Source of the DNA: an uncultured virus (IMG/VR IMGVR_UViG_3300028591_000091)
Taxonomy: Duplodnaviria; Heunggongvirae; Uroviricota; Caudoviricetes
IMG/VR virus record: IMGVR_UViG_3300028591_000091
Direction: 5' to 3' (one strand)
DNA: 64,000 nt
Shown here: piece after piece, positions 812 through 16,069 of the stretch
Layout of the letters: each line of letters opens with the position of its first letter
Position numbering within the stretch: the stretch's first letter is position 1
Position numbers and translations under genes: made by a program
The notes under the pieces: model-generated
What the model saw: the letters and a program-made list of their open reading frames with translations, nothing else
Told to the model about the DNA's origin: nothing
Databases searched by the model: none

Positions 812-1102
812 CTAACAACACGATCCATGTTTAAGCCAGCATTTAAACTCTTCTAATGTGATTGTAAATTTTCCACAATCATTAAAATCGTCAAAAAATA
901 ATTTATGTGAAGATATAATATAGGGAAAGCCAATACGTTCTAAAAATATTCTTTTTAAAATTTTTATTTTATATTTATTCTTGGACTTTTTGCTTGAAAT
1001 TTCAGTAATTATATTATAATTTTTATTTTCATCAACCCAAAAAGAGAATATAATTTTATAAAAACAATAAAAATGTAAAATCCTATAACTAACTTCAATC
1101 AT
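812..1102 (-). CDS. hypothetical protein (small Lys/Phe/Ile-rich family, cf. 8418, 35908)
   Basis: 96 aa ORF; start overlaps the recombinase stop; LKRIFLE resembles LKNIFLE and LKKVFLD in paralogs. Confidence 0.6.
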   Translation of the reverse strand: MIEVSYRILHFYCFYKIIFSFWVDENKNYNIITEISSKKSKNKYKIKILKRIFLERIGFPYIISSHKLFFDDFNDCGKFTITLEEFKCWLKHGSCC

Positions 1103-2115
1103 TACGAAATCTCTTCATCATAACAGATATATTGATTGAAAGCTCTCTCACTAGAATGTCCGGTTGCTCTAAGAAGTTTATTACGAGGAACATTTCTTAG
1201 CGTATTGATGGTGGCAAAAGAACGACGTGCACTGTGAGAAGAAATAAGTTGATACTTTGGTTTAGTCTCCTTTATTATAACACCATTTATTCTATTGTCT
1301 ATATTAATGGGTTCTAAAAATTCTTCTCCAATATGATATAGAATTTCATGAAGATATGTATTGAAATTATTTATATCACCAGAATAAGGAGCATAATAAC
1401 CATATCTTTCTAGAATCTCCCAAACCACCTTACTCTCTATACTCATCGTGTTTATATCTAAGACACATTTATTTCCAGTCTTTTGTTGAACTATAGAAAA
1501 CTGTCCATTCCTAAAATTTAATGGAGTAATTCGTACAAGATCAGAGTATCGTTGTCCTAAATTACAGCCTAACACGAACATATCTTTTACTCGATTTAAT
1601 GTTAGGAGTTTATTTTTACTATAAAATACCTCTTTCTTTAATCTGAAACTATAGGCCTTTTCCATACCTAACTTAAAATGATAGATATGGCTTATTTCAT
1701 CTGGTGTTAGAGAGATTTTGCTGGATGAATAACTAGGAACATCAACCTCATTATAAGAAGGATCTAGCCTAACTCCATATTTTGAAGACCAGTTTAAAAC
1801 AGCTATAAGATTAGATTTTAATAGTCCGATAGTAGAATATTTTAGTCCCTGATTAACTAAGAATGGAATAAAATGATTCCAAAAGACAGAGCTAATCATT
1901 ATAGGATAAATAATACAACCAGTCAATTTTTCTACTCCCATCAATTTATTTACTAAGAGCTTATAATTCTCTATTATTTTAGGATGAGATTGAGACTTTA
2001 TTTCACACATTTTTCTAATGCACTGTATAAGAGAACTTCCACTTAAGTCTAGAACAAAGGAATCACTGCCACTTGATATCAAATAATTACGAAAATTATT
2101 GTCAATATTATTCAT
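1102..2115 (-). CDS. tyrosine site-specific recombinase (probable invertase of the adjacent shufflon)
   Basis: Catalytic set R (LGQRYSDL), K (QQKTG), HxxR (SSHSARRSF), H (TGHSS), Y (QYI); starts 58 bp from the first recombination site. Confidence 0.9.
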   Translation of the reverse strand: MNNIDNNFRNYLISSGSDSFVLDLSGSSLIQCIRKMCEIKSQSHPKIIENYKLLVNKLMGVEKLTGCIIYPIMISSVFWNHFIPFLVNQGLKYSTIGLLKSNLIAVLNWSSKYGVRLDPSYNEVDVPSYSSSKISLTPDEISHIYHFKLGMEKAYSFRLKKEVFYSKNKLLTLNRVKDMFVLGCNLGQRYSDLVRITPLNFRNGQFSIVQQKTGNKCVLDINTMSIESKVVWEILERYGYYAPYSGDINNFNTYLHEILYHIGEEFLEPINIDNRINGVIIKETKPKYQLISSHSARRSFATINTLRNVPRNKLLRATGHSSERAFNQYICYDEEIS

Positions 2116-2172
2116 AATTTTATAAATTTTTGTTATTATATTAGTAAGGAGTTGACCATTTTTGTGAAAATA

Positions 2173-2202
2173 TGTACAGATTTATGACAATAAGTATGTG
2201 CA
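2173..2202 (+). repeat. shufflon recombination site A
   Basis: TGTACAGATTTATGACAATAAGTATGTGCA; identical to site C; reads VQIYDNKYVQ in frame with cassette 1. Confidence 0.85.
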
Positions 2203-4855
2203 ATTCCGTTACATGCTCCAGTATGAGAATACAACAGATGGAAATGCTGCATTTATTAATACCGCTAACTGGCAGGGAGTAGATGTAGAACCAATTCGTA
2301 ATAGCAAAAACTTACTTGAAAGCGGAGGAATAGCAGAGATTTTATACGGCAATAATGTTTCTCGTACATTCAACGCAACAGCAGGAACTAATCTAAATAC
2401 AACTTCGTGGCCAGTTAATATAAATGTGCCAAGCGGAACAGAAGTTTCTGTGTTAATATCTTCTGAAAATATTGGATATGTCCAGGTAGATAATTTTTAT
2501 ATAAAAGTTAATGGCAATTTTCAATCATATTCAGATAAACCCTATATTAACGTAAAGAAAAAATATACATTCCAAAACGATGTAACTGCTTTTGGTTTTC
2601 TTCTTTACGGAAACAATATACCGTCCAATACAACAATTAAATTGGAATGCCATACCAAAATTGGCATTAAAGGTGAATTGTTAAAAGACGCAGAAGAAAT
2701 TAATGGGATTAACATAAAATTACCATTAAAAGCTGATGAAAATGAGGAAAGTGTCAATTTGTTTAATCCTGACGATGAGAATATAATAGAAGATAGTTAT
2801 ATTAAAACAGACGGAACTGTTGGAAGTAATGGTTCATATATTATATCTGCCCCTATTGCTGTTAAGCCAGGCGAATCTATAGTCTCTAATAAGTTAGGAA
2901 CTTCTGCTGCGGGTGCATTGTACGAAAATGCAGATTCTACCACAAAAGGGTATTTTCTCGTATCAACATCTCCTTACGTGCTATCAAACCCAACGGACAA
3001 GGTTATGTATGCAAGATTCAGCTACCATAAAGCCCAGACCAATATTATGGTTAATAGAGGTACTACACCACTTGCATATCAACTATATACAGATTCAAAT
3101 AAAGTCATTCGAGAATCTGACGTTGTAAATGAAACTGGGAGTTCTACAAAAAAGCCAATTTCTCAAAAGTTATTTACCGATAGAATATCCAATACTATTG
3201 GTAGCGATTCTATTGTTCAAGTGCTTGGTAATAATGAGAATAAAATAATATCTCAAGCAAAAATAACAGAGCTTCTTGGACTTGATTTTGGTGGTAACGT
3301 ACAAAAGAAAAAGTACAATACAGTTTCTGGAACTTCACTTAATACAACATCAAATCCGTTGCTGTTTAATGCAAAGAAAGGAGATACGTTGCATATATGT
3401 ATTTTGGGAGGGGAAAGCAACGTGAATGCGGTAGCAAGGGTTTTCTATTATCGTAACAATGGAAATTTTGTAAACGTGACAACTACGATTCAAGGTGAAC
3501 TTACACAAGGTCACGAATACACCTATATAATGCCAGCAGATGCAGACGCTTTTGGATTCTTGTCTGATGGTGATGCTCATGATAATGGATACCTACAGCT
3601 TGTTATATGGACGCAGGATTCTATTCCAGTAGATGTCAAAAATCAGACTATAAAGAAGTGGACGCTTGCAAGAGTTGTTAGACAATGGATGAATGGAGAT
3701 AAGTGTCCTATTGGATTCATTGGTGATAGTACAACTGATGGAACAAGCACTACAGGATGGAGTGTACAAAATTCGCACCCACGTCAAGATGCAAGAAATT
3801 GGCTTGAAGACCATCCTGAGTATATGCCAAGTGCAAGCACGGAAACAAGAGAAGCAGCAGCGCAAGCTGCGGGAAAAGGTAGAGGTAGTGTAGATTATAT
3901 ATGCGAAAAGGCATACCCGTATTTACTTGAAAAACTAATACAGTCAGAATTTGGCAATAATAATGCAAGAGTGTATAATATTGGTTATTATGGGATGGCT
4001 CTTACAAGTTATATTAATGTAGGAGATTTTTTCTCGGACGCATACTCTGATTGTAAGATGGCGGGTATTATCCTTGGTATAAATGACCGAGGAAATGTGA
4101 ACAGCTATGGTAAATATTACAATAGCGTCCTTCAACTTTTAGAAAGGTATGTAATTTGGCTAAATCGTATCGGCATTACCCCATTTATGGTTACAAATCA
4201 GTATGTAACACAAAGCGGTAATAACCCAAACACTGGCAGTGGTATCCCAGACATCATGTACAATGATGATGTACAAACAATCACCAACAGAGCCAAAATT
4301 GAAGTTGCCAAGAAATATGGTCTTGAAGTTATAGACATGAATGGATTTGGAAGACTTGTGTTTATGTGCAGTAATTACGCTTATAGTAACCTTACGGAAG
4401 ATTTACATTTTAAGGATTTGGGACATAAATTGGAAGCTGGATTCTTATTCTCACAACTCATTCCTTGGGTAAACAAGACGGGGGATGCCCGAACAGTGTA
4501 TATCGGGTTTGGTGGTGCATACAACAAGAGCGAATTTAATGTTGGTAAATATGAGACTGGCACTAATGACCGTTTTAAGAGAGAGATTAATTATACAAGA
4601 AGTGAAAGTACAAATATTTGCATTTTTGATTCCTATGTATTCAATAATTCTCTGGATGGTGCATATACTGTTAAGTATCTAACCCCTGCTGCAAGTGGGT
4701 ATATAGTTATTGATGGCGACACAAGCAATCCAATAATAATCAACTCTACTGAAATGACTCTTGACCCTTGGGATATTGGTCTGCATCATGTTCAAGTCTA
4801 TACTGGGGAAAGTACAACTGTTGCATTCAAAGGATTCTTACTTGAGCAAAACTAA
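2198..4855 (+). CDS. silent variable C-terminal cassette 1 of tail/receptor-binding protein, SGNH/GDSL esterase domain
   Basis: Begins inside site A (GTG is part of the site); N-end resembles the repeat in 4968-8108 (NWQGVD-EP--S-NLLESGG); SGNH blocks IGDSTT, GIND, DLHF. Confidence 0.8.
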   Translation: MQFRYMLQYENTTDGNAAFINTANWQGVDVEPIRNSKNLLESGGIAEILYGNNVSRTFNATAGTNLNTTSWPVNINVPSGTEVSVLISSENIGYVQVDNFYIKVNGNFQSYSDKPYINVKKKYTFQNDVTAFGFLLYGNNIPSNTTIKLECHTKIGIKGELLKDAEEINGINIKLPLKADENEESVNLFNPDDENIIEDSYIKTDGTVGSNGSYIISAPIAVKPGESIVSNKLGTSAAGALYENADSTTKGYFLVSTSPYVLSNPTDKVMYARFSYHKAQTNIMVNRGTTPLAYQLYTDSNKVIRESDVVNETGSSTKKPISQKLFTDRISNTIGSDSIVQVLGNNENKIISQAKITELLGLDFGGNVQKKKYNTVSGTSLNTTSNPLLFNAKKGDTLHICILGGESNVNAVARVFYYRNNGNFVNVTTTIQGELTQGHEYTYIMPADADAFGFLSDGDAHDNGYLQLVIWTQDSIPVDVKNQTIKKWTLARVVRQWMNGDKCPIGFIGDSTTDGTSTTGWSVQNSHPRQDARNWLEDHPEYMPSASTETREAAAQAAGKGRGSVDYICEKAYPYLLEKLIQSEFGNNNARVYNIGYYGMALTSYINVGDFFSDAYSDCKMAGIILGINDRGNVNSYGKYYNSVLQLLERYVIWLNRIGITPFMVTNQYVTQSGNNPNTGSGIPDIMYNDDVQTITNRAKIEVAKKYGLEVIDMNGFGRLVFMCSNYAYSNLTEDLHFKDLGHKLEAGFLFSQLIPWVNKTGDARTVYIGFGGAYNKSEFNVGKYETGTNDRFKREINYTRSESTNICIFDSYVFNNSLDGAYTVKYLTPAASGYIVIDGDTSNPIIINSTEMTLDPWDIGLHHVQVYTGESTTVAFKGFLLEQN

Positions 4856-4967
4856 TATACTTATTGTAATAAGTAGATTCATAGGAGATTGATAAATAAA
4901 GGAAAGGATAGACAAAAACTACCCTTTCCTCTTTTATTTTAAGTACATCCTTTTTACAAGAACTATA
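4856..4967. repeat. ~110-bp inter-cassette spacer copy 1 with probable bidirectional terminator
   Basis: Near-identical to 11883-11994; hairpin AGGAAAGGATAG...CTACCCTTTCCT with A-rich and T-rich flanks, between convergent cassettes. Confidence 0.8.
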
Positions 4968-7900
4968 TTAAATAGTCCATAATATAACTTTTATTGCCCG
5001 ACCATAATCTGTAGCAAAATGAACCTTCAAATAAGGGAAGTCATTTGTTGCTATTATTTCACCGTATGGTGTTGCAACTCCAGCTGTTAATTCAGATGCA
5101 GTGAATCTACGAGTAGATATTCCTTCTATATCATGGCTTTTGCTACCGGTTATATTGCAAAACTCATAATAGGTTGGTGTGGCATTTGCAGAAGCAAAAC
5201 TAAATGAAGAACCATCTTGAACTACAGTTGCATTGACTACGATGAAATGGCAATATTCACTATTCTGCGAACCAGTTAAACGTGCTTTGTAAGTTCCATA
5301 AGATAGTCCACTTAATGTCTCATCTATACCAGATATTGCATTGCTTTCCAATAGAACATCATCTTTATAGACTTCAAGCGTAGTAAAACCTACATCAGCG
5401 TAGTCAGTACGAAGATTCAGAACAACATTGTCTCCTTCAATATAATTTGCCTTTTCGCCATAATTAGGACAAATATCATCATTGTAAGTATATGGGACTA
5501 ATGTCTCATCACCAACTGCAACAAATTGATTCTGTGGTGTATACTCACGATTTTCATAAAGTTTTTTGTAGCGATAAATGACATAATTACCACCAAATTC
5601 TTTTAGTATTTCATTAAAGGATGCGACATCGCTATAGACAGTTGTTATCACGCCACCTTGCGCTGCCTCTGTTATTTCTATTTCTACAGGTAAATTGTTC
5701 TTATCTCTTTTAATACCAGTAACCATACGAATATGACCAGTCATTAAAAGACTATCAGCCAACTTAATACCATACGCACTTTGGTCATCGACTTTTTCCA
5801 TTTCGTCCCATCCTGGTATTTCTGTTGTAGTTATATTCATAGGAAGACCATAAGCATAAGCTATAAGACCAGAGCAAACAGTACCATAGTATGCAGCACA
5901 GTTTCCTCTATGGTAAGTCCTTCCAATAGCACTCGTTGAATTATCCTTGTTGACATTCTCTGTATATACTACACTTCTTGGATTATTTACAGCAGTCATA
6001 AATGTTTCAAACGATACATCTATGGCAACAAATTGTGAATATTCAGCAACAGAAGAATATATCATTCCGGTCTTTTCGATATTAGGTTGATATGTACCTT
6101 GATTATAAGGTATTCTTCCTTTAGGAGTCCATTTAATTGTAGATAATTGTGCGGCTTTTAGTAGAGCATTATAAACACCTATATTATCAGGCTTGTCATA
6201 CGGGTCAAATGATATTTGTTGAACTAAATACTCTTTCAAAGAAACTGTTTCAGAATTATAGAACTGAACTCTTACAAATGCTGCATTAGATGGAGCAATA
6301 ATAGCTATATTCTCATAATCTTTTGATACGCCAATACTATTGATATAAGATTCCAAAAAAATATCATTATCATCGTAGAAACAACATAAACAGGCATTTG
6401 CATGACGATATACTCTTCCAGAGACAAGATACACTTTATTTTCTTCTATAGAAAATTTCCTTACACCATAAGTTGTACTGCCCGATACAATCGTTCCATT
6501 GTTGTATAAATAAGAACTTCTGTTTGTACTTAATGCTACTATATCAAGTGTCTGCAAGTTAGTCTTGTTTGCTAAATCATTATATAGAATAGAATTGTTA
6601 ATAGTTTGTGATTCTACATCTTCTTTTAGACTATCTACCTCCTTTATTTTTTTAGCAAGTCCATCAGTATCTGCATCACAAAAGAAAAATATACCCTGTT
6701 TTTCATTTTTCCAATAAGTAAAACGAACATACACAGCACCATTAGGCACTACTGTCTTATCAATAACATAACCATTGTGGTCACTATTGGTTTCTAATAC
6801 TGAACTATTAGGGATAAAATGCTTCTCGGAATCATAAAACGCCAAACCTAAAGTCGGTGCACTGGTTGAACTTTTGCAAACTCTCGTGTATAAAATATTC
6901 GATATTCTAGTAATATCAATATATCCAGTCTTCATCCTTGAGTCTGGAGCACTTTGGGCACTGCCATCTGAACCTCTAATACTACCTACAGAAGAAGAAA
7001 ATGGGATTTTATTATATTGATAAATCGCTTGTCCAGCACCAATATTATTTAAGGCTTGTGTTTTCTGCTCATCAGTCAAAATTTGTGGTGAAACACCAAC
7101 AAAAGTAGATACTGCTCTCTTAACGATAAATCCTGTATCAAGGTCATTGCGCCAAAGCAAAAGATAGGTACATCCATCAGGGATTTTCATCCAAATACTT
7201 ACGTTGGGGGAAATTCCATAAACACTTGTTCCCGCAACAACTGGTACATTACCATTAGCAGAAGCAGCATTTGTGGTTGCAAAAGCAACTCTAAGCGTGT
7301 AATCATCTATTCCATCTATATGATAGATTTCTCCTGCTGTAACTGGAAGATATATATGTTTGTTAGCCCTATTATTATTAAAAGTACCGTTTAATAAAAT
7401 CTTAAAATCAGCCGATGTATAGGACACCTCATAAGCATTGTCCATTCTGACGCTATTCAGCGTAGCAATTTCGTTTTCTGAACAAATAAGAGCATCATCA
7501 TCTATGCCCTGCCACTGAGTAACATCAGTAGTAAAGTTCTGAGCCGTACAAAAGAACTTAACATAGTTATTGTCAGAAGTCTGTACAAACTTTATGCTCA
7601 TTCCACCTTTTCGAACAGATGTAGGAATATAAGTTCCTAGGTTTGCATCACTGAGAAGAGCACTCAGACTAGCAAAAGTGGTGCCTCCGTTATGAGCACT
7701 AACGTCATATACTCCACCCAAAGCAAGTTCTTCAGCTACACCACCACTCTTCACAAGGTTATCACTAGACGCGGTTGGAACATTATCAATATTTTCACTA
7801 ATCCAATTTCCTGTAGTAGTATTGAAAGTGGAAGAAGAGAGTCTATACTGTTGATAAGTATGACCTGAGCTTTCAATATACCTAATGCTCATTCCTCCCT

Positions 7901-8108
7901 TTTGTTTGGCCAGAGGAATAGCAGCTAAAGCTAATGATAAAGTTGAATACTCGGCAGGCGTTAGAGGATCACCACTAGCATTATACTCAGAGATGTCAAA
8001 AATATCATTAATTTCAATTTGGTTTCCGTCTCTATCTATTACTCCGTCGATATGAGTTAGAGGATAGAAAGTTTCACCATTTCTCGTAAGTCTCCTAATT
8101 TCACTCAT
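4968..8108 (-). CDS. tail fibre/receptor-binding protein: constant N-terminus (8108-~7590) fused to currently expressed cassette 2 (possible NlpC/P60-like Cys-His domain)
   Basis: Only cassette-bearing ORF with its own ATG and upstream promoter-like motif; tandem N-terminal repeat (DxSxxN...KGGMSI); site B in frame (FVQTSDNNYV); YGTVCSGL...GHIRMV resembles NlpC/P60 catalytic Cys/His. Confidence 0.75.
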   Translation of the reverse strand: MSEIRRLTRNGETFYPLTHIDGVIDRDGNQIEINDIFDISEYNASGDPLTPAEYSTLSLALAAIPLAKQKGGMSIRYIESSGHTYQQYRLSSSTFNTTTGNWISENIDNVPTASSDNLVKSGGVAEELALGGVYDVSAHNGGTTFASLSALLSDANLGTYIPTSVRKGGMSIKFVQTSDNNYVKFFCTAQNFTTDVTQWQGIDDDALICSENEIATLNSVRMDNAYEVSYTSADFKILLNGTFNNNRANKHIYLPVTAGEIYHIDGIDDYTLRVAFATTNAASANGNVPVVAGTSVYGISPNVSIWMKIPDGCTYLLLWRNDLDTGFIVKRAVSTFVGVSPQILTDEQKTQALNNIGAGQAIYQYNKIPFSSSVGSIRGSDGSAQSAPDSRMKTGYIDITRISNILYTRVCKSSTSAPTLGLAFYDSEKHFIPNSSVLETNSDHNGYVIDKTVVPNGAVYVRFTYWKNEKQGIFFFCDADTDGLAKKIKEVDSLKEDVESQTINNSILYNDLANKTNLQTLDIVALSTNRSSYLYNNGTIVSGSTTYGVRKFSIEENKVYLVSGRVYRHANACLCCFYDDNDIFLESYINSIGVSKDYENIAIIAPSNAAFVRVQFYNSETVSLKEYLVQQISFDPYDKPDNIGVYNALLKAAQLSTIKWTPKGRIPYNQGTYQPNIEKTGMIYSSVAEYSQFVAIDVSFETFMTAVNNPRSVVYTENVNKDNSTSAIGRTYHRGNCAAYYGTVCSGLIAYAYGLPMNITTTEIPGWDEMEKVDDQSAYGIKLADSLLMTGHIRMVTGIKRDKNNLPVEIEITEAAQGGVITTVYSDVASFNEILKEFGGNYVIYRYKKLYENREYTPQNQFVAVGDETLVPYTYNDDICPNYGEKANYIEGDNVVLNLRTDYADVGFTTLEVYKDDVLLESNAISGIDETLSGLSYGTYKARLTGSQNSEYCHFIVVNATVVQDGSSFSFASANATPTYYEFCNITGSKSHDIEGISTRRFTASELTAGVATPYGEIIATNDFPYLKVHFATDYGRAIKVILWTI
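7561..7587 (-). repeat. shufflon recombination site B (inside expressed gene)
   Basis: Minus strand TGTACAGACTTCTGACAATAACTATGT. Confidence 0.85.
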
Positions 8109-8417
8109 AATATTAATTTTTAAAATTATGTATTACCTTTCTATTTAGGTAACTTTACAAACACGCCCAATAAAGGGTTTTCTCCAAGAACCTCAAAACA
8201 CAACAAACACTATTTTCCGAAAGTTAAGGGTTCCGAGGTTCTAAGATTCCCTATCCTTTCTATAATTGTAAGAGAGAAAGATCAAATTTTAAGACTTTCC
8301 CTAAATATTATTCTTCTCAATATATAAGGAGAAGTGACATTTTTTTGATGTTTTAGTGGGTCAATTTAACTGAAAAAAGAGCATTTTTGTTATGAAATAA
8401 TAAAAAGTAGCTTTATA

Positions 8418-8750
8418 TTAGCTACTTAAAATAATAGTTCTTAGAGAATAACGATACTCTGCAAAAGCACATAAAATTTTATCTACATCCTTAAAAGATA
8501 TTTCAATTTCGTGAGATTTCATTTTTATAGGATAGCCAAGATAATCGTTAGGCCCTCTTTCAAAAGTAGAGTAAAACTCTTTTTCTAAAAAAATATTTTT
8601 TAGGTGTTTTCTTTTAAGAATCTTTTGCTTTTTTATGTCTTTGAGGCGTAGCCAAGGAATAACATAAAAGAAATCGTTGGGGAATTTATAAAAAATAGTT
8701 ATAACACTTTTATCTTCTGAAGGATAACCTATTATACATTCAACTTTCAT
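8418..8750 (-). CDS. hypothetical protein
   Basis: 110 aa ORF overlapping upstream gene. Confidence 0.6.
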   Translation of the reverse strand: MKVECIIGYPSEDKSVITIFYKFPNDFFYVIPWLRLKDIKKQKILKRKHLKNIFLEKEFYSTFERGPNDYLGYPIKMKSHEIEISFKDVDKILCAFAEYRYSLRTIILSS

Positions 8751-9300
8751 AAATTACTCTAGATATCTGAAAAGTATAAACTTTTTCTATCTCAGGTTCA
8801 TCTGCCAAATATTCACACTGACTTCTTTGTTCTCCTATATATTTTCCCCACTTACACCATCTCCATCCATCTTCCTCTGGTTGATCTTCTTTTCTGATGG
8901 CACATAGAAAGATAACAAACTTCTCTTTCGATTCCTGATAATATTTCAATTCAGGTATCTTTTCAAAAATTTGTTCCCAACTATCACAAACACCATAAGG
9001 ATAACTTATATATGCCAATCCTCTCTTATCAAGTAATATTGGATAATGTAATTCGGAAGCAAAATCGAGAGTTACATATTCTTGGCCCATAAACTTTACT
9101 CCCTCAAAACACGGATCATTTACGTCATAGTATTCATAAACTCCGGTAGATAATTTCTTTAGTATATTTCCCCACTTTAAGTTTCTAAGATTGTTGGCCA
9201 CTTCATCACCATCAACCTTTCTTATGTCTTCAATAACTTTCTCTACTCCTGGATAATCCCATACTTTAGATTCCGGATTATATATTAGATCAACAAGCAT
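8740..9300 (-). CDS. hypothetical phage protein (GWRWxKWGxYIG motif)
   Basis: 186 aa ORF with normal composition. Confidence 0.7.
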   Translation of the reverse strand: MLVDLIYNPESKVWDYPGVEKVIEDIRKVDGDEVANNLRNLKWGNILKKLSTGVYEYYDVNDPCFEGVKFMGQEYVTLDFASELHYPILLDKRGLAYISYPYGVCDSWEQIFEKIPELKYYQESKEKFVIFLCAIRKEDQPEEDGWRWCKWGKYIGEQRSQCEYLADEPEIEKVYTFQISRVIYES

Positions 9301-9769
9301 TTTCTTTTCTAGAAATAGAAAGTGTGATGTGTAATTTACCTAAGTGTATTCCTCGGCTATTAAATCCCCAACTACAATAATTACTTTTGTCGTAACTGAT
9401 GTAAAGATTATATTCTCTTCCCATCACTTCTTTATACAATACTTTATACATTTTTTAAATTGAAATTTATTATACATTATTAAGGATTTCGTTGTTTGAG
9501 ATTCGCGCAAGAAACATAACAAGGTGTATAATATCTGTGTTTCACAAAATATATTCACACCTTAAAAATTACACACGGGGATCTGAGATAAAGAGAGCCA
9601 GTTTAAATTCTCCCCGTGTTTCCCATTCCCTTGCGCAAAAGAAAAACAACAGACATTTTTAGCCTAATTCTTTCCAATCATCACAACAACCTATACAGAT
9701 ATCGTTAAGATAACAATTAGAACACCTAGTATGATCACTAATACCTATTCTTTTATTTTCAATAAATTA

Positions 9770-9799
9770 TGTACAGATTTATGACAATAAGTATGTGCA
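9770..9799 (+). repeat. shufflon recombination site C
   Basis: TGTACAGATTTATGACAATAAGTATGTGCA, identical to site A, in frame with cassette 3. Confidence 0.85.
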
Positions 9800-11054
9800 G
9801 TATAGACTTATGACTCAAAACTTTACTACTTATATTGCTCAGTGGGAAAGATATAACGATGTCACCTCATCTAATCAAGCAGTCTCTGATCTTGATTTTT
9901 CAGACGAGCAAGGAAACGTTCTTGTAAGATTCCAAGAAGGAGACATTAAAACAAAGAACTTTGATAGTTCTAAAGATGCATCTGAAGAAGAACGGGGTTT
10001 GATGTCTGCTGAAGATAAAACTAAGCTTAACACGATAGAAGAAGGAGCAGATGTTAGCGATGTTGTTACTGAGAATGCCGATAATGTTGATTTGGATTTT
10101 TCTGATGAACAAGGGAATGTAGTAATGCGTGTTGCTAACGGCCACATAAAAACAAAGAATTTTGATTCAGAAAATATTCAACCACCATCTCCACAGCCTG
10201 TGTCCAAGCCTAAAATTTCTTATTTAGCAATAGGTAATTCGGTCAATCAAGACGTTGTTGCTTATATTCCATATTTATTAAAAGAATTATATGGAGACTC
10301 TATAGATTTTGAAATCGGCATAGCATTTATTGGAAGTTATACTATAAAAGACTATGTAGAACAAGTCATAACAAAGCAAAAGAAAATAGAAATATATTCC
10401 TATGCTAATAATACCGATATATGGACTAATCATAGCAATACTTATTATTTAGAAGATGTGTTAGGTTTGCATCAATGGGATATAATTTCATTTCAAATGT
10501 ACCAAACACGAACAGAGGTTTCTTCACATATAGAAGATGTAACGCTTTCTCCTCAATTATTAAATTATATTAAATCTAACGCAATTCAAGAATGTAGTTT
10601 CGGTTTTGTCACGCCTGCTACTTATACAGACATGAGAAGCACATATATAGAGTGGCAACAAACTGTTTTGACAAACTGTGCATTAGACTTTTTTATTGAT
10701 TATGGGGCAACTAAAGAACTGATGATTGGAAAAGGAATCAGTAGTTCATTAATGTGTACAGACGGTTATCATAGTAACGAAGGCTTTCCTTGTATTTCTT
10801 TATCCTTAACTGCTATTCATGTACTAGCAAAACTTATTAATATTAAAGATATGTCAAACAATTTAAAGGATAGGATGACAGCAGCAAAGCATTCTACTTT
10901 GAATATTCCAAATCAGAACGGTAGTTTCACAACTACAACGGAGAGTGATTGGAGAATAGGAATAGATAGTGCTATTAATGGATTTAGAGTTAGCAATGCT
11001 ACTTTAAATATTTCGAATAATACATTAAGACAACAAACTTATAATAACAATTAA
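9795..11054 (+). CDS. silent variable C-terminal cassette 3, SGNH-like hydrolase
   Basis: Starts within site C; QNFTT...QW shared with the expressed gene; duplicated DLDFSDEQGNV...IKTKNFDS; LAIGNS and DGYH SGNH-like blocks. Confidence 0.75.
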   Translation: MQYRLMTQNFTTYIAQWERYNDVTSSNQAVSDLDFSDEQGNVLVRFQEGDIKTKNFDSSKDASEEERGLMSAEDKTKLNTIEEGADVSDVVTENADNVDLDFSDEQGNVVMRVANGHIKTKNFDSENIQPPSPQPVSKPKISYLAIGNSVNQDVVAYIPYLLKELYGDSIDFEIGIAFIGSYTIKDYVEQVITKQKKIEIYSYANNTDIWTNHSNTYYLEDVLGLHQWDIISFQMYQTRTEVSSHIEDVTLSPQLLNYIKSNAIQECSFGFVTPATYTDMRSTYIEWQQTVLTNCALDFFIDYGATKELMIGKGISSSLMCTDGYHSNEGFPCISLSLTAIHVLAKLINIKDMSNNLKDRMTAAKHSTLNIPNQNGSFTTTTESDWRIGIDSAINGFRVSNATLNISNNTLRQQTYNNN

Positions 11055-11058
11055 AATT

Positions 11059-11607
11059 ATGGGAAAAAGTTTAATAATTAAAGGCGCGGATTTTTCTGCG
11101 AACGCTATTGAGAGCGGGAACTACTATATTCCGCAAACTGTAAAAAACGCAATTGGAGGTAGTTTCTTTGTTAAGGATGGAACTGCTACTTTAACAGATG
11201 ACGTAAATGAACTCTCTGGAAAAACAATTAAAGGATTTGATTTGTTATTTGTAAACAAGTGCAGTGGTCAGACCATGGGTGAAAGGATTACTTTCAATCC
11301 TATAACTGAACAAAAAATTATATGTAATATTAATTGTGCTTTTGAAACTCAAGATGAAAGTGAACAAAAAATAATACACTATGATTTATCAGAACCTTAT
11401 ACATTTAAAGAAAACGATGTTTTAAGTATTTTTCCTATTGGTGCAATCTACGAATCATCATCAGGCGCTTGGAGAGGTGGCTGCTATGTATTTAGAGCAC
11501 AAAGACCTGATAATATACCCAATTTTGCCTTTTTAAGTAAGATAGGTAGTAACCCTCCTTTGTCACAGTATTCATATCAGCCTTTTGCGAAATTGTATCT
11601 ACAGTGA
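11059..11607 (+). CDS. hypothetical protein co-transcribed with cassette 3 (possible fibre partner or chaperone)
   Basis: 182 aa ORF 4 bp after the cassette 3 stop. Confidence 0.65.
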   Translation: MGKSLIIKGADFSANAIESGNYYIPQTVKNAIGGSFFVKDGTATLTDDVNELSGKTIKGFDLLFVNKCSGQTMGERITFNPITEQKIICNINCAFETQDESEQKIIHYDLSEPYTFKENDVLSIFPIGAIYESSSGAWRGGCYVFRAQRPDNIPNFAFLSKIGSNPPLSQYSYQPFAKLYLQ

Positions 11608-11696
11608 TGTTATGTACGGCTAAAGACTCGTATTTTCAGCACTTATTGTAAGATGGGTCATATTATTATAACAATCGCATTAGAATACTATATCAG

Positions 11697-11735
11697 GAAG
11701 CGACTTTCAATTACGAGAGTCGCTTCTTTCTTTCA
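11697..11735 (+). terminator. intrinsic terminator
   Basis: GAAGCGACTTTC-loop-GAGAGTCGCTTC followed by T-rich run. Confidence 0.6.
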
Positions 11736-11882
11736 CTAAACTCATCATTTCCGCTCTTTCTTCGATAAATATTAAAACGAAATTTCTACTTACAAGAATA
11801 GATGGCTTGGGACATTAACAAAGCTATATATGCACTGAACAGAAACGCTGCTGGTTGTAATAAATCGACACATAACACTTTA

Positions 11883-11994
11883 TATACTTTTTGTAATAAG
11901 TGGATTCATAGGAGATTGATAAATAAAGGAAAGGATAGACAAAAACTACCCTTTCCTCTTTTATTTTAAGTACATCCTTTTTACAAGAACTATA
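11883..11994. repeat. ~110-bp inter-cassette spacer copy 2
   Basis: Direct repeat of 4856-4967 with about 2 mismatches. Confidence 0.8.
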
Positions 11995-12000
11995 TAAAAG

Positions 12001-14070
12001 TTACTCAAACAATAACTCTGGGACAGTTGCAACAGCCATACTATAAAGTGCCTTTGCTCCTTCTGTATCAGGATGAACATTGTCACTTGCTAACATATTT
12101 TGATACCATACTGAATCTCCGTTTTCACTAATTGCTTGTGCAAAATCAATGTACTTATACCCACTACTAATAACATAAGCATTTTTATTTATGTTTCTCG
12201 TTAAAGTGCTTGGTACATTTGGAACAGTAGTTAATATCAATTCTATGTTGTAGAATTTGCTTATAACTTCAACTTCTTGTAATGCTTCTAACCAACTGCT
12301 ATTAGGTGCATCTGTAGTATCTTTATCATTCATACCTGGAGCCCATATAATTCTTTTAGGAATACCTCCCCAAGAGATATGTCTTTTTAACGATTCAAGA
12401 CACATTGCAGAAGTGCCACCAGGAGTAGAACTAAACATAAAGTTATTATATCCCTGCTGCACTAAGTAATAAGGCCATCGTCTTTCACTATTAACTGAAA
12501 GGTAACTGTCTCCATATATCCATGTTGATTTTTCTATTGCATCACATTGATAAGACAAATGACAATCCTTCATAGTATCACCGACAGTAATATATAAAGT
12601 TCCATTATTACTACGAAATGCAGCATCCTCCCACTTATAACTGCCACCATTTGTTTTAATTTCAACAAACGTTGAACCTTTATAGTCAGAATGTAGAGTA
12701 ACAGCTATATAATCTGAAATCGTTAAACCATGTTCAGTTTGTGAAGAAAGTGTATCGCCCTTTATATAGGAATATATTTTTGTACTTGTTATTTTTATTC
12801 TTCCTGATTGGTCATAAAATGACTCCCCTTGTTGTCCAAATCCAAGTATCAAATCACCTGTCAATGCTGAAACCTTACCAAAAAAGTTAAGAGTATATGC
12901 GCAAGTGTCACGAATGTTATATTCAGTTTCTCTGAATGTTTGACCACTGATAAGTTCATCTATATTATAGCTAACTCCTCCAGGGAAATTTATTGATTTT
13001 CTGCTTCCACAATCAAGTAATGTATCTAAAAGTGTATTATTAGGTCGGATATAATTAAAAAGATATGGAGACGTAGCAAGATAAACTATTAAATTTGGTG
13101 TTGCATAAAAGGCACTTGTTATGCTGTATCTTATGTATTTTGCATTGTTTGGAACAATGTAATAACTTTGACTCTGTACACCAGAACCTGATATAAAACT
13201 ATCTTCATTGTTTGATGTATATGCACAAACACGTGAAAATTTAAGATTAGTTTCTCTCACATCAATAATATTTCTCCCTGTAAAAAGTTGAGCAAACAAT
13301 TTCTGTCCAGGTGTAACAGGAATAAACTGTGAGGTGAGATACCCAGCTAATTCACCTATTTTACCCGTAGAAGGATAAAGACGAGTATCTGGTATAAGAT
13401 TGCCCATAAGATTGATATTACAATCACGTGATTCTAATCCTAATACGCTGTTATTTATTTTTGAGAATATAATTTTCCCATCATAGGCTCTGTACGGCTG
13501 TATAGTATCTTTTTCTGAGATAATGACACTTTTATTTGCGTAAGAGTAAACAGTATCTATGAATGTCAATCTTATATATCTTGCATTTTCAGGTATAACA
13601 TATACACGTGCTCCATTTGAACCAGAATTTGGAATAAACACCCTATTTATGTCATAAGCACAAACTCTTTTAAATGCATTTGAAGGCATTGTAGATGAGT
13701 CAGTTCTTACTCCATCAATATCTGCTTGTGCTCGTATAGATTCCCCTTCAAAAACAGGTATAAAATCAGTTGTATAATAACCATCGAGGTCGGTTATTTT
13801 TCCAGTATTAGAAGCTAAACATTTATTTGCTTCTACAGTATTTTCGTTTAAAAAATTGACACTTTCATCATAATCGAAACATTTTGCTGTAGCTATAATG
13901 TACTCTTCGTCATTTTTAACACCATTTGACAGTATAGCAACACTATGACTTAATGCTAAATTACGACTATTTAATGTTGGTACATTATCAACGTTCATAC
14001 TTTGCCAATTATCAACATTAGTGAAAGTAGCAGCAGTAGTAGCATCAGTTTTCATATAGCGGCATTGCAC
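12001..14070 (-). CDS. silent variable C-terminal cassette 4, SGNH/GDSL esterase domain
   Basis: Starts within site D; NWQSMNVDNVPT matches the repeat of the expressed gene; YGDSY, PGMND, DNVHP blocks. Confidence 0.8.
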   Translation of the reverse strand: MQCRYMKTDATTAATFTNVDNWQSMNVDNVPTLNSRNLALSHSVAILSNGVKNDEEYIIATAKCFDYDESVNFLNENTVEANKCLASNTGKITDLDGYYTTDFIPVFEGESIRAQADIDGVRTDSSTMPSNAFKRVCAYDINRVFIPNSGSNGARVYVIPENARYIRLTFIDTVYSYANKSVIISEKDTIQPYRAYDGKIIFSKINNSVLGLESRDCNINLMGNLIPDTRLYPSTGKIGELAGYLTSQFIPVTPGQKLFAQLFTGRNIIDVRETNLKFSRVCAYTSNNEDSFISGSGVQSQSYYIVPNNAKYIRYSITSAFYATPNLIVYLATSPYLFNYIRPNNTLLDTLLDCGSRKSINFPGGVSYNIDELISGQTFRETEYNIRDTCAYTLNFFGKVSALTGDLILGFGQQGESFYDQSGRIKITSTKIYSYIKGDTLSSQTEHGLTISDYIAVTLHSDYKGSTFVEIKTNGGSYKWEDAAFRSNNGTLYITVGDTMKDCHLSYQCDAIEKSTWIYGDSYLSVNSERRWPYYLVQQGYNNFMFSSTPGGTSAMCLESLKRHISWGGIPKRIIWAPGMNDKDTTDAPNSSWLEALQEVEVISKFYNIELILTTVPNVPSTLTRNINKNAYVISSGYKYIDFAQAISENGDSVWYQNMLASDNVHPDTEGAKALYSMAVATVPELLFE

Positions 14071-14095
14071 ATACTTATTGTCAGAAGTCTGTACA
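14066..14095 (-). repeat. shufflon recombination site D
   Basis: Minus strand TGTACAGACTTCTGACAATAAGTATGTGCA. Confidence 0.85.
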
Positions 14096-14185
14096 AATTA
14101 GCTTTAAAATAATATCTAATTTAGCTAAAATATATCAAGATTTGTGAAATATTCTATTGAAGATTTTCCAAAGATGCTCTAATTT

Positions 14186-14192: not shown

Positions 14193-14212
14193 AATATAAA
14201 ATGAATTAGATT

Positions 14213-16069
14213 ATGAAAGAAAATTATAAGAAAGAATATGAGGATCTTATAGAAAAATTACGTAAAGCTAGAAAAGATGTTAATAAGAAAGATTCTCAGT
14301 TTAGTCAAATTATAGATGATATTGTTCCAAATCTTATAGATAACGAGGATGAAAGAATCGGTAAAGAAATTATAAGAATTGTTGACATATGGACAAATAG
14401 CTGTCCAGTTGTCAATGGGATTCCAGTAGAAAAACTACTTTCTTGGCTTAAAAAGCAAATTGAGCATGCTAACTTCCGTAATAAGATACAGATAGGCGAT
14501 AAAGTAACGCGTAATAAAGATGGTGTACTTGTTAATCTTTCCCAATTAAAGAGAATGGCAAAGCAAGGTGAGCAGAAGCCTATCAAAAAGCATAATGTTC
14601 GCGAGTTTTGCGAAGATAGATATGGATGTGTCAGCCCTTGTCCTATGAAATTAATAGAGGAAGAGAAATATACTGATAATGTTGAACCGAAGTTTATGTT
14701 TGGGAATTGGTACTTATGTATAAAAAACTTTTATGGCAAGGGTGTAAGATTTGATAAAGGAAAGGCATATTATTGTGGTCTTGACGGATGTCTTCAACAG
14801 TTTGATTCTGGCGCACACATCTGTATAGACAAAAATTTATATGAATATTTTAGGATTTGGACTATCCGAGATGCAAAAGATGGAGATGTGCTTGCTTGTG
14901 AAAATGATATTGTGATTTTTAAAGAAAATAATTATAATCCTAAAGACAAAAGCGGATGCATGTTTATTTATTGTTCTTGCAATAACTTTTACGAAACTGG
15001 AGGAATAAACCCAACTACTTATAAGCCTGCCACCGAAGAACAGTGTGACCTCTTATTTAAGAAGATGCACGAAGCAGGGTATGAATGGGATTCCGAAAAG
15101 AAAGAACTAAAGAAGATTGAGCAGAACTCAGCTGATTGTAGTGAGGATGAGCTATCTTGCTTTGAAAGTGCTTTGTTTACCGCTTTTAGCTATGCTTGGC
15201 AGTCTTATTTACTAGGTGGAATAGATATTAGACAGTGGACTAAAGAACAATCAAAAGAACTTTTGGAAGCTGCTAAAGAAGAGTTAAAATGGCATAATTC
15301 AGCTTGGAGTAAAGAGGATGAGAGAATGTTAGATATAATTCTAAATGACGTTAATTATGCCCAGAAGAATTTCTCGGATTCTAAACTAATTCCTTATAAA
15401 AGAAAAGTTGATTGGTTCAACTCTATTAAAGAAAGGATACAGCCACAGCCACAAAACAAATCACTTGCAACATCTGACTTAGATAATTCTTTGTGTGATA
15501 TACAAGATAGATTTTCGGATACCTCATACGAATATAGAATACTTGGCGAAGCAATCGAGTTTATCCGTTGCACTGAGTCAAAGCCTAATTGGAAGCCAAG
15601 TGAAATTAGCCCTAATGGTGTATATCCTGAGGCAGACGGTGTTCGTATTTGGCATGATGGACATACTTTTAAGATACCAAAAAATTGGAATAAAGGATTG
15701 TGGCCTCTTTTAAATGATGTAGGTAGAAGAAAAGCATCTATGGATTCTTCATATTTTTGTGAATTAGATACGCAGTTTGATTGGGATTTTATAGAGGCAA
15801 CTAAAAAGATACAGGAATTAGGAACCGATATTCCTCTTAATGATGGTGAGTTTCTTATAACTATGCCTATTTTTCATGCCATCTATTTAAATAGGTGGGA
15901 ACTAAATGTAGCTTTATATAATATGGGAGCAGAGGAAATTAAACTTGGGGAGAATATTTGGATTGCACAGCGTAGAAGTAAGAGCGAAGCATTTGGATAT
16001 AATAAATATAATAATTTAACTAGATTTTCTGTTGGTTCTATAAACAGGTGTATAATTATAATGCCCTGA
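14213..16069 (+). CDS. mosaic phage protein (EDERI/WLEKQ/WTIQDAKDGD/WKPS module family)
   Basis: Shares modules with 38477-39907 and 43151-44209. Confidence 0.75.
   Translation: MKENYKKEYEDLIEKLRKARKDVNKKDSQFSQIIDDIVPNLIDNEDERIGKEIIRIVDIWTNSCPVVNGIPVEKLLSWLKKQIEHANFRNKIQIGDKVTRNKDGVLVNLSQLKRMAKQGEQKPIKKHNVREFCEDRYGCVSPCPMKLIEEEKYTDNVEPKFMFGNWYLCIKNFYGKGVRFDKGKAYYCGLDGCLQQFDSGAHICIDKNLYEYFRIWTIRDAKDGDVLACENDIVIFKENNYNPKDKSGCMFIYCSCNNFYETGGINPTTYKPATEEQCDLLFKKMHEAGYEWDSEKKELKKIEQNSADCSEDELSCFESALFTAFSYAWQSYLLGGIDIRQWTKEQSKELLEAAKEELKWHNSAWSKEDERMLDIILNDVNYAQKNFSDSKLIPYKRKVDWFNSIKERIQPQPQNKSLATSDLDNSLCDIQDRFSDTSYEYRILGEAIEFIRCTESKPNWKPSEISPNGVYPEADGVRIWHDGHTFKIPKNWNKGLWPLLNDVGRRKASMDSSYFCELDTQFDWDFIEATKKIQELGTDIPLNDGEFLITMPIFHAIYLNRWELNVALYNMGAEEIKLGENIWIAQRRSKSEAFGYNKYNNLTRFSVGSINRCIIIMP

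What the first reader, a model, noticed from the sequence alone, without database searches (positions are those of the whole stretch)
1102..14095. Four-way tail-fibre shufflon driven by a tyrosine recombinase
Seen: four copies of TGTACAGA(TTTA/CTTC)TGACAATAA at 2173(+), 7587(-), 9770(+) and 14095(-), all in the same reading frame (VQ-(IY/TS)-DN-YV). Only the copy at 7587 lies inside a gene with its own N-terminus. The other three sit at the exact starts of headless ORFs, and a tyrosine recombinase gene begins 58 bp from the first site. Inference: inversion AxB fuses the constant head to cassette 1; BxC flips the head and promoter onto cassette 3; CxD exchanges cassettes 3 and 4. That gives four alternative receptor-binding proteins. 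Known phage fibre switches (Mu Gin, P1 Cin) are mostly two-state serine-invertase systems. A multi-cassette tyrosine system with a central, itself invertible constant region is closer to the R64 Rci shufflon and is unusual in an RNAP-encoding large phage.
Basis: partly seen in the sequence, partly recalled or inferred. Interest (0 to 1): 0.92.

Follow-up and report, generated by a model that had tools for sequence, protein, structure and literature searches.

The report
Four-cassette phage fibre shufflon, unproven activity
A large gut phage keeps one anchoring front end and four interchangeable enzyme-bearing back ends for a surface fibre, laid out beside a DNA-flipping enzyme so that inversions could swap them; this kind of host-range switch is already known in other phages.

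Summary
Four copies of the 21-nt site lie at 2173(+), 7587(-), 9770(+) and 14095(-); none is expected by chance. All four are in one frame. Three of them open headless ORFs of 428-894 codons, and a gene with a modelled tyrosine-recombinase fold starts 57 nt from site A.

New here:
- Each site has 11-nt inverted arms around an asymmetric 8-nt spacer.
- A second site class (TTACAA spacer) follows every cassette's stop codon.
- Recombinase relatives sit next to such a site in 23 of 25 testable loci.
- Related phages lose all similarity exactly at these sites.

Phage fibre shufflons run by tyrosine recombinases are already in print: Rin (2018) and BV01-like Phocaeicola phages (2026). This scan has also noted the kind on other DNA. 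I call this a new variant of a known kind, of moderate interest.

The parts
1102..2115 (-). Tyrosine recombinase gene (337 aa) with core-binding and catalytic domains and no arm-binding domain
   Evidence: phrog_1 integrase E 3.4e-9. Pfam Phage_integrase 18.9 bits, below the 27.1 cut-off. 40 of 52 aligned homologues match Phage_integrase. AF2 model pLDDT 93.7. Foldseek top hits are XerA, Tn1549 Int, lambda Int 75-356, XerH, Cre and IntI. R189, K212, H294, R297, H320 and Y329 are conserved.
2173..2202 (+). G-type site A: left arm, spacer ATGACAAT, right arm
2174..4855 (+). Cassette M1, a headless ORF of 894 codons from the site, with a GDSL/SGNH hydrolase domain
   Evidence: Homologues P0272 (66% identity) and P0273 (50%) are longer and carry N-terminal heads.
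4855..4972 (.). 118-nt element: T-type site E1(-) at about 4855-4883, a two-way terminator-like hairpin at about 4894-4939, and T-type site E2(+) at about 4941-4969
   Evidence: (fold z = -2.99)
4968..7586 (-). Cassette M2, currently fused to the head; no family match
7558..7587 (-). G-type site B, inside the intact gene (spacer CTGACAAT; right arm begins AAC)
7588..8108 (-). Constant head: about 174 codons holding an N-terminal anchor and two copies of the junction domain. It is the only head in the 64-kb window.
8109..9769 (-). Rest of the central invertible segment: a 300-nt region upstream of the head, a terminator-like hairpin at 8405-8427, and ORFs 8418..8750 and 8740..9300
9770..9799 (+). 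G-type site C
9771..11607 (+). Cassette M3: a headless ORF running to 11054 (DUF4886, SGNH-like) plus a second ORF at 11059..11607
   Evidence: Other modules also carry a second ORF before their T-type site.
11882..11999 (.). Second copy of the 118-nt element: F1(-) at about 11882-11910, the hairpin, and F2(+) at about 11968-11996
12001..14094 (-). Cassette M4, a headless ORF of 698 codons. Distant homologues include SGNH proteins and one that a source names an ester hydrolase.
14066..14095 (-). G-type site D

Best explanation
This is a phage-borne multiple-inversion system (shufflon) for a virion fibre or spike whose distal part is an enzyme.

One 5' head of 174 codons, with its own upstream region, sits on a 2.2-kb central segment bounded by sites B and C. 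Four alternative 3' cassettes (M1-M4; at least two carry SGNH-type esterase domains, and M4 may be a third) each start at a G-type site. Each ends with a stop codon followed by an inverted T-type site. The cassettes stand in two convergent pairs that share a 118-nt site-terminator-site element.

The adjacent simple tyrosine recombinase is inferred to cross over within the asymmetric spacer (TGACAA) of oppositely oriented G-type sites: A x B, B x C, C x D and A x D. By my own derivation this gives 16 arrangements and 4 expressed proteins, all carrying the head's version of the junction.

Shown: the anatomy, the recombinase fold, the link between the recombinase family and these sites, and breaks in similarity at the sites among related phages. 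Inferred: that inversion runs in this phage, where the strands are cut, and what the fibre does. A likely role is coping with variable surface polysaccharides of a Bacteroidota-type host.
For: Sites and frames:
- Four sites against 0 expected, in alternating orientation and one frame.
- Stop codons lie 1-12 codons upstream of A, C and D.
- The headless ORFs stay open for 894, 428 and 698 codons in 33% G+C DNA. By my arithmetic that cannot happen without selection.
- The GTG that the ORF listing takes as the start is the conserved valine codon of the junction, and it is present inside headed genes of relatives too.
- P0273 carries an M1-like region (50% identity) fused in frame to a head through the same junction motif.

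Recombinase:
- Fold and conserved catalytic positions.
- 23 of 25 relatives with at least 800 nt of upstream DNA have a T-type site within 800 nt. The pattern occurs only 26 times in 816 kb scanned.
- Nearly all of these relatives have a G-type site in the fibre gene upstream.

Constraint at the DNA level:
- Third codon positions from -12 to +12 around the site carry 1.2-2.0 bits, against mostly 0.1-0.7 in the flanks.
- Caveat: the sequences were selected by a 9-13-nt core, so those core columns are conserved by construction.

Breaks in similarity:
- L049 and L059 are 100% identical through the head and the site, then unrelated.
- L018 and L075 behave the same way.
- At T-type sites five pairs break within the site.

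Other relatives:
- One 92-kb contig (L062/L063) has a two-cassette convergent version with the same 118-nt element, 91-92% identical.
- At least five contigs begin or end within 40 nt of a G-type site.
Against: - No alternative junction of this phage was seen.
- There was no near match in 50,697 phage records.
- None of the 24 metagenome loci that carry the exact 21-mer is near-identical to the window.
- M1 and M4 appear in the protein collection only as the window's own headless calls. No fused form near 100% identity exists.
- The head+M2 protein is recorded on 2 contigs, both in this state.
- Many phages carry G-to-T modules with no recombinase of this family within 7-10 kb. The two-cassette relative has none within about 4 kb; its 334-aa neighbour is RtcB. 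The sites can therefore persist without the enzyme in cis.
- A/C and B/D are direct repeats, so deletions would compete unless the enzyme avoids them, which is unknown.
- The window's own protein falls below Pfam's cut-off.
Confidence: 0.68

Rival explanations
1. The array is a store or relic, not a running switch. The sites mark where cassettes were captured or exchanged between phages over evolutionary time. In this genome the three headless cassettes are silent and are rarely or never inverted.
For: No isomer was seen. Sites occur widely without a nearby recombinase. L072 has two G-type sites in direct order, which cannot switch by inversion. L073 has a truncated recombinase.
Against: Three long intact ORFs argue for ongoing selection, hence at least occasional expression. 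An intact recombinase lies 57 nt from site A. The alternating orientation makes every cassette reachable.
Confidence: 0.17
2. The headless ORFs are translated on their own, from the GTG in the repeat or from an internal ATG, and act as separate proteins.
For: the ORF listing gives GTG starts. The gene calls behind P0271 (880 aa) and P0274 (684 aa) start at internal methionines.
Against: The GTG is the conserved valine of the junction and is equally present in headed genes. In the confident part of the head model, the equivalent position in the first junction-domain copy is a beta-hairpin (strands 74-79 and 84-90), so a headless product would begin mid-domain; that the site-bearing copy folds alike is my inference. 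Homologues are head-fused.
Confidence: 0.05
3. The recombinase serves another purpose, such as integration or its own spread as a mobile gene. The repeats would then recombine, if at all, by general homologous recombination.
For: The nearest named relatives are integrases of Porphyromonas phages, at 28.5% identity or less. The stretch from the T-type site to the end of the recombinase gene is 86-99% identical between phages that are otherwise 66-81% alike, so the gene itself moves horizontally. The order fibre gene, site, recombinase resembles the order tail genes, attP, int (my recall of lambda).
Against: A repeat of 21-30 nt is short for RecA-type exchange (general knowledge). The protein has no arm-binding domain: 337 aa aligned to lambda Int 75-356. 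Breaks fall inside the sites rather than being spread through the flanks. The window encodes split RNA polymerase and NAD genes typical of large virulent-type phages, though temperate life is not excluded.
Confidence: 0.07
4. G x T inversion within one module works as an on/off switch, giving a full-length or a truncated fibre.
For: Single-module relatives keep one G-type and one T-type site in inverted order together with the recombinase.
Against: In every contig examined, G-type sites in fibre genes are followed by long frames (about 200 to 1,300 codons where complete). The T-type sites that close a module are followed by 3-62 codons. The two classes differ constantly at one spacer position.
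Confidence: 0.03

Closest known systems
Rin shufflon of Bifidobacterium and Eggerthella prophages (PMC6109161, passages read; PMC8778435, passages read)
   Same: It is phage-encoded. A tyrosine recombinase sits beside one constant 5' receptor-binding-protein segment and several dissimilar 3' cassettes, each preceded by a short asymmetric site.
   Different: The Rin site (11 bp, as printed in that paper) is absent here. In Rin the constant part sits at one end of the array and rin at the other; here the head is on a central invertible segment. These cassettes are 1.3-2.7 kb and encode whole enzyme domains, in convergent pairs with shared terminators. A second site class closes each cassette. 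Rin activity was shown by isomers; none is shown here. Orthology of the recombinases was not tested.
Tail-fibre shufflon of BV01-like Phocaeicola vulgatus phages (PMC13596623, 2026 preprint; passages read)
   Same: It is a Bacteroidota-phage fibre gene with a flanking recombinase and several cassettes, proposed there to counter variable capsules.
   Different: That system spans 1.7 kb with three cassettes, six variants and a 10-bp motif that is absent here. It was verified by reads. This locus spans 12 kb in a phage of at least 173.5 kb that encodes RNA polymerase subunits.
R64 Rci shufflon (recalled; named only through other papers)
   Same: A tyrosine recombinase, multiple inversions, an asymmetric site with a conserved spacer, and alternative C-termini of an adhesin.
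   Different: It is a plasmid pilus gene with the constant part at one end. Rci's avoidance of deletions is known for R64 (recalled) and unknown here.
Mu Gin, P1 Cin and p15B Min fibre switches (as described in PMC6109161)
   Same: Inversion swaps fibre C-termini, and the cassettes are convergent as in the Mu G segment.
   Different: Those enzymes are serine invertases. This one has the tyrosine-recombinase fold.
Cassette exchange with two incompatible sites (Cre/lox RMCE) and integrons. This is a likeness in working only, from recall.
   Same: Each cassette is bounded by two related sites that differ in the spacer, and a recombinase gene lies next to one of them.
   Different: No exchange event was observed. 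The same cassette was not found in two backbones. The sites are inverted rather than direct, and there are no attC-type hairpin sites.

Membership tests
Tyrosine recombinase superfamily | Two-domain fold: core-binding plus catalytic | tested here: met
   AF2 model pLDDT 93.7, pTM 0.87. Foldseek found 61 PDB matches at E<=0.001, led by XerA, Tn1549 Int, lambda Int, XerH and Cre.
Tyrosine recombinase superfamily | Catalytic R-K-H-R-H/W-Y residues | tested here: met
   R189, K212, H294, R297, H320 and Y329 are invariant or at least 90% conserved in alignments of 11 and 52 sequences. Assigning them to catalytic roles is my reading of the motifs.
Tyrosine recombinase superfamily | Pfam Phage_integrase match at the gathering score | tested here: inconclusive
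   The window protein scores 18.9 bits against a cut-off of 27.1. 40 of 52 homologues match at E<=0.001. Sequence searches against PDB chains found nothing.
Shufflon (multiple-inversion system) | Three or more copies of a short crossover site, in both orientations | tested here: met
   Four G-type sites in the order + - + -.
Shufflon (multiple-inversion system) | One constant 5' segment and alternative 3' segments in frame at the sites | tested here: met
Shufflon (multiple-inversion system) | A dedicated recombinase next to the array | tested here: met
   It lies 57 nt from site A. The family is tied to these sites in 23 of 25 loci.
Shufflon (multiple-inversion system) | Isomers observed, meaning alternative junctions within a population | tested here: inconclusive
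No near-identical contig was found. No fused alternative protein was found. Only two or fewer assemblies hold this phage.
Rin shufflon | The 11-bp rix site | tested here: not met
   0 matches with up to 1 mismatch.
Rin shufflon | Recombinase orthologous to Rin | not tested
BV01-like phage shufflon | The 10-bp directional motif | tested here: not met
   0 matches.
Gin/Cin/Min invertase systems | Serine recombinase | tested here: not met
   The fold is that of tyrosine recombinases.
Phage tail fibre | Homology to proteins annotated as tail fibres | tested here: inconclusive
   The window's head and cassettes match no PHROG. 8 of 18 full-length relatives match PHROGs named tail fibre or tail protein through their C-terminal parts. 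In L015 the gene follows the prohead protease, capsid and a collagen-like gene. The model of the head was poor and its fold search found nothing.

The most novel reading that the evidence does not exclude
The G-type site (inside the coding junction) and the T-type site (after the stop) may be a pair of incompatible recombination sites. Together they would make fibre tips portable cassettes across many unrelated gut and rumen phages, a natural counterpart of recombinase-mediated cassette exchange. On this reading the small recombinase gene itself spreads from one T-type site to another, and the four-cassette shufflon is what results when captured cassettes pile up in inverted order.

Support:
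- 58 distinct G-type and 53 distinct T-type contexts were found.
- Heads upstream of the site are unrelated between phages.
- Similarity breaks exactly at both site types.
- L049 and L059 share only 260 nt at the G-type site and 48 nt at the T-type site.
- The recombinase region is far more alike than the genomes that carry it.

Against: no cassette was found in two backbones.
Probability: 0.3. Interest if true: 0.8.

Novelty: new variant of a known kind. Interest (0 to 1): 0.5.

Why it matters
If the switch is active, one large phage could present any of four different surface-modifying enzymes on the same anchor. That would be a compact answer to hosts that vary their surface polysaccharides.

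A related phage (the contig behind L065) instead carries four full-length genes with the same anchor. The two genomes therefore offer a natural comparison between showing all fibres at once and showing one at a time.

The wider result may matter more. A roughly 30-nt site embedded in coding DNA, together with a partner site after the stop codon, bounds fibre tips in dozens of otherwise unrelated phages. That would be a concrete, testable mechanism for the well-known mosaicism of receptor-binding proteins. It could also give a ready-made way to swap fibre tips between laboratory phages.

Tried and rejected
- No whole genome is held for the window. The records behind L062 and L065 are not held either.
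- Megablast against phage records found nothing.
- PDB sequence searches with the recombinase, with its profile and with M2 gave nothing. The single weak M4 hit (E 0.045) is not credible.
- NCBIfam found nothing for 8 proteins.
- The head model was poor (pLDDT 57; only residues about 35-105 are confident) and its fold search found nothing.
- The sigma-70 promoter scan was uninformative: 73 sites found against 68 expected.
- In one search my M2 query was one base out of frame, so that M2 result is void. It was not repeated against the loci.
- I dropped the idea that the left arms of A and C are chimeras of T-type and G-type sites. The same variants occur in headed G-type sites.
- A second recombinase clade at 36-41% identity (L110-L123) mostly lacks these motifs; only L118, and L049 from the metagenome set, has a T-type site. 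I did not work out that clade's sites.
- No site was found at the 3' end of the recombinase gene.
- Paper searches: 'jumbo phage' + shufflon, 0 papers. rumen + phage + tail fiber + recombinase + inversion, 1 irrelevant paper. PMC9881135, PMC8042965, PMC13501310 and PMC12247996 (passages only) describe nothing like this locus.
Full report
OBSERVATION

One search finds exactly four matches to the 21-nt motif: 2173-2193(+), 7567-7587(-), 9770-9790(+) and 14075-14095(-). 100 shuffles gave 0 matches. A and C read ..GATTTATGAC..; B and D read ..GACTTCTGAC... Conservation extends to about 29-30 nt.

All four copies are in one reading frame. Only B lies in a gene with its own start: 4968..8108(-), 1046 aa, site at about codons 174-181. 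Upstream of A, C and D the frame is closed by stop codons 3, 12 and 1 codons before the site, with no in-frame ATG. From the sites the frames stay open for 894 codons (M1), 428 codons (M3, followed by a second ORF at 11059..11607) and 698 codons (M4). The window has 33% G+C. By my own arithmetic, frames that long cannot stay open without selection.

The ORF 1102..2115(-) starts 57 nt from site A. The 64-kb window holds only one head and one such recombinase.

THE RECOMBINASE

Sequence evidence alone is thin:
- PHROG integrase, E 3.4e-9.
- Pfam Phage_integrase, 18.9 bits, below the 27.1 cut-off.
- Nothing in NCBIfam.
- Nothing in PDB chain sequences, either with the single protein or with a profile.

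A profile search of 1.84 billion representatives gave 7,791 hits at E<=0.001. Of 52 aligned members, 40 match Phage_integrase and 25 match Phage_int_SAM_5. The AF2 model built on that alignment is confident (pLDDT 93.7). Foldseek places it among XerA, Tn1549 integrase, lambda Int residues 75-356, XerH, Cre and IntI, with 61 matches at E<=0.001. R189, K212, H294, R297, H320 and Y329 are conserved.

At 337 aa, the protein has a core-binding and a catalytic domain and no arm-binding domain. It is a simple recombinase of the Cre/Xer style. The nearest deposited phage genes are integrases of Porphyromonas phages and of uncultured faecal phages, at 28.5% identity or less. That hints at a Bacteroidota host.

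SITE ANATOMY (my reading of the sequences)

Each G-type site has an 11-nt left arm (TGTACAGAsTT) and an 11-nt right arm (AAGTATGTGCA, whose reverse complement is TGCACATACTT). The arms form an imperfect inverted repeat, 9 of 11 in the window's B and D sites (8 of 11 against the family consensus left arm). They flank an asymmetric 8-nt centre, nTGACAAT. This is the usual plan of a simple tyrosine-recombinase core site, and the asymmetric centre gives the site a direction.

If exchange occurs in the centre, each left arm stays with its flank. The expressed protein would then always carry the head's own version (..VQTS-DN..), and the IY versions at A and C would never be translated.

A SECOND CLASS OF SITES

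Directly after the stop codon of every cassette lies a related site whose centre is TTACAA instead of TGACAA. It is inverted relative to that cassette's G-type site. The four copies are:
- E1(-) at about 4855-4883
- E2(+) at about 4941-4969
- F1(-) at about 11882-11910
- F2(+) at about 11968-11996

E1/E2 and F1/F2 flank a hairpin that has T-runs on both strands (fold z = -2.99). Each trio lies inside the 118-nt direct repeat 4855-4972 / 11882-11999, which is 97% identical.

Each cassette is therefore a module: G-type site, ORF(s), stop, inverted T-type site. The four modules stand as two convergent pairs that share a two-way terminator.

RELATIVES

- A scan of IMG/VR with the recombinase found 54 pattern matches, of which 40 encode a relative, in 39 distinct loci at 68-75% identity.
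- 23 of the 25 loci with at least 800 nt of upstream DNA have a T-type site on the opposite strand within 800 nt of the gene's start. The pattern occurs only 26 times in 816 kb scanned, so practically nowhere else.
- Nearly all have one G-type site 2-3.5 kb further upstream, inside a long fibre-like gene.
- The exact 21-mer occurs in 2 IMG/VR contigs and in 24 metagenome loci.
- Over all fetched loci I count 58 distinct G-type and 53 distinct T-type 66-nt contexts.
- The T-type site is a discrete non-coding element of about 28 nt with unconserved flanks.
- In G-type sites, third codon positions from -12 to +12 carry 1.2-2.0 bits, against mostly 0.1-0.7 in the flanks. Caveat: the sequences were picked by a 9-13-nt core, so those core columns are conserved by construction.
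- The N-terminal parts upstream of the site-bearing domain are unrelated between phages.
- The family of the window's head has 719 members at E<=0.001. None has an informative name (the only source name in the list is 'hypothetical protein'). Their C-termini carry many different enzyme domains, including M14 peptidase, polysaccharide deacetylase, GDSL, metallophosphoesterase, GDPD, pectinesterase and DUF4886.
- 8 of 18 full-length relatives match PHROGs named tail fibre or tail protein. The window's own head and cassettes match none.

BREAKS IN SIMILARITY AT THE SITES

T-type sites:
- In five pairs of related phages (L024/L026, L003/L004, L029/L032, L029/L031, L030/L041), similarity of 93-99% runs from the recombinase side through the left arm and centre of the T-type site.
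- It vanishes within a few bases after the centre.
- A wider all-against-all comparison gives 59 such pairs, but this count includes re-fetched copies of the same contigs.

G-type sites:
- L049 and L059 are 100% identical through the last ~90 nt of the head shown and the site, and unrelated afterwards (the whole 260-nt match is 89.6% identical).
- L018 (the same phage as L068) and L075 behave alike.
- L049 and L059 share only 260 nt ending at the G-type site and 48 nt at the T-type site.

So in nature the same head is found joined to different cassettes, with the join at the site.

Other points:
- The stretch from the T-type site to the end of the recombinase gene is 86-99% identical between phages that are otherwise 66-81% alike. 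The gene itself moves horizontally, and the left boundary of the moving piece is the site.
- I found no site at the gene's 3' end.
- I found no cassette present in two different backbones.

VARIANTS OF THE ARCHITECTURE

- One 92-kb contig (L062/L063) has a headless GDPD cassette converging on a headed M14-peptidase fibre gene across the same 118-nt element, which is 91-92% identical to the window's. Its headless flank is 89% identical to the flank of site D. No recombinase lies in the roughly 4 kb fetched on either side, and the neighbouring 334-aa ORF is RtcB.
- L072 has a headed and a headless G-type site in direct order.
- L073, from a 123-kb contig, has a truncated, inverted recombinase remnant.
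- The 155-kb contig behind L065 encodes four full-length paralogues, each with its own copy of an anchor 57% identical to the window's.
- Many phages carry G-to-T modules with no recombinase of this family within 7-10 kb.

ARE THE CASSETTES REAL FIBRE TIPS?

- M1 has a GDSL/SGNH domain and M3 a DUF4886 domain.
- M4's distant homologues include SGNH proteins and one that a source names an ester hydrolase.
- M1's homologues P0272 (979 aa, 66% identity) and P0273 (1273 aa, 50%) are longer. P0273 shows a head, the junction motif and then the M1-like region in one frame.
- The GTG that the ORF listing takes as a start is the junction's conserved valine codon and occurs inside headed genes too.
- In the head model only residues about 35-105 are confident. 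They cover the first copy of the junction domain. There, the position equivalent to the site is the turn of a beta-hairpin, between strands 74-79 and 84-90. That the second, site-bearing copy folds alike is my inference.

MECHANISM

The head has a 300-nt upstream region that begins just after a terminator-like hairpin at 8405-8427. It can therefore carry its own promoter on the B-C segment; this is inferred.

Inversions between oppositely oriented G-type sites would act as follows:
- A x B puts M1 behind the head.
- B x C turns the head toward M3.
- A following C x D brings in M4.
- A x D flips the whole array.

By my own derivation, three segments give 16 arrangements and four expressed proteins. 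Inversions between T-type sites would only re-pair cassettes and would not change the product.

Inversion between a module's own G-type and T-type sites would truncate the fibre. Every G-type site in a fibre gene is followed by a long frame (about 200 to 1,300 codons where complete). Every T-type site that closes a module is followed by a short one (3-62 codons). No assembled contig shows the flipped state. Together with the constant one-base difference in the centre, this suggests that the two classes do not cross-react. This too is inference.

WHAT IS MISSING

No isomer of this phage was seen:
- The only strong holder among the runs is the probable source sample.
- No near-identical DNA exists in the phage, IMG/VR or metagenome collections.
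- M1 and M4 occur in the protein collection only as this contig's headless calls.
- The head+M2 protein is recorded on two contigs, the longest 173.5 kb.

Because so few assemblies hold this phage, the absence of isomers is weak evidence.

COMPARISON WITH WHAT IS KNOWN

- The Rin shufflon of Bifidobacterium prophages was described as the first phage-encoded tyrosine-family invertase. It has five variable cassettes, an 11-bp site and observed isomers (PMC6109161, passages). It was later reported in Eggerthella prophages (PMC8778435, passages).
- A 2026 preprint reports a read-verified three-cassette fibre shufflon in BV01-like Phocaeicola phages (PMC13596623, passages).
- Neither system's site motif occurs in the window.
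- Earlier notes of this scan list 32 findings of this general kind in at least 27 genomes. They are unchecked by me, apart from the lead to the Bacteroidaceae paper.
- My searches found no paper on a shufflon in a jumbo-type phage and none describing these G-type and T-type sites. I opened no supplementary files.

VERDICT

The shufflon reading is the best explanation (about 0.68), but it is not demonstrated.

The locus is a new variant of a known kind. Its distinguishing features are a central invertible head, very large enzyme cassettes in convergent pairs, two site classes, a divergent small recombinase, and a large phage that encodes RNA polymerase subunits.

The most novel reading still open is that the two site classes form a cassette-exchange system shared by many unrelated gut phages.

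Noticed in passing
window 50967-51977, 57699-58793, 59366-60544: Fragments of a multisubunit RNA polymerase beta-type subunit (phrog_3295, phrog_2987) lie on separate ORFs, with a homing-endonuclease gene (phrog_655, E 4.6e-33) between them. This is the split RNA polymerase typical of very large phages.
   Followed up: no
window 19084-19662, 20229-21422, 62428-63345: A set of NAD-related genes: a NUDIX hydrolase, a nicotinamide phosphoribosyltransferase-like protein and an NAD synthetase.
   Followed up: no
L065 (155.6-kb metagenome contig); proteins P0027, P0049, P0054, P0064: A related large phage encodes four full-length fibre paralogues with nearly the same N-terminal anchor and different enzyme ends. 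Only one exact 21-mer was found in that contig. It seems to display all fibres at once rather than switching.
   Followed up: partly
L072 4506 and 6612: Two G-type sites stand in direct order: a headed fibre gene, then a truncated second ORF, then a headless cassette whose end resembles M4 (31% identity). Recombination here would delete rather than invert.
   Followed up: partly
L015 9790-9980 and the same position in L009, L017, L018, L020, L040: A conserved stretch of about 200 nt lies between the T-type site and the recombinase start. It contains a long internal inverted repeat and a shared 36-nt block. It could be a regulatory region or a structured leader.
   Followed up: no
window 2110-2151 versus 8092-8133, and 14150-14200: The DNA just upstream of headless sites A and D weakly resembles the head gene's 5' end, including its first codons (42 nt at 71%; about 59% over 44 nt). 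This may be a relic of lost heads, but in such AT-rich DNA it may also be chance.
   Followed up: partly
L073 13256-13594: In a 123-kb relative that also has a homologue of window ORF 14213..16069, a truncated recombinase remnant (residues 223-335, 79% identity) lies inverted next to two T-type sites.
   Followed up: no
L042 5719-6534, L059 5303-5992, L052 2108-2917; window 11059-11607: Several modules carry a second ORF between the fibre gene's stop and the T-type site. It is 230-270 aa in the three named loci, which share an N-terminus beginning MGNCLKTQLK. The window's M3b is only 182 aa and starts merely similarly (MGK..). It may be a chaperone or a distal partner.
   Followed up: no
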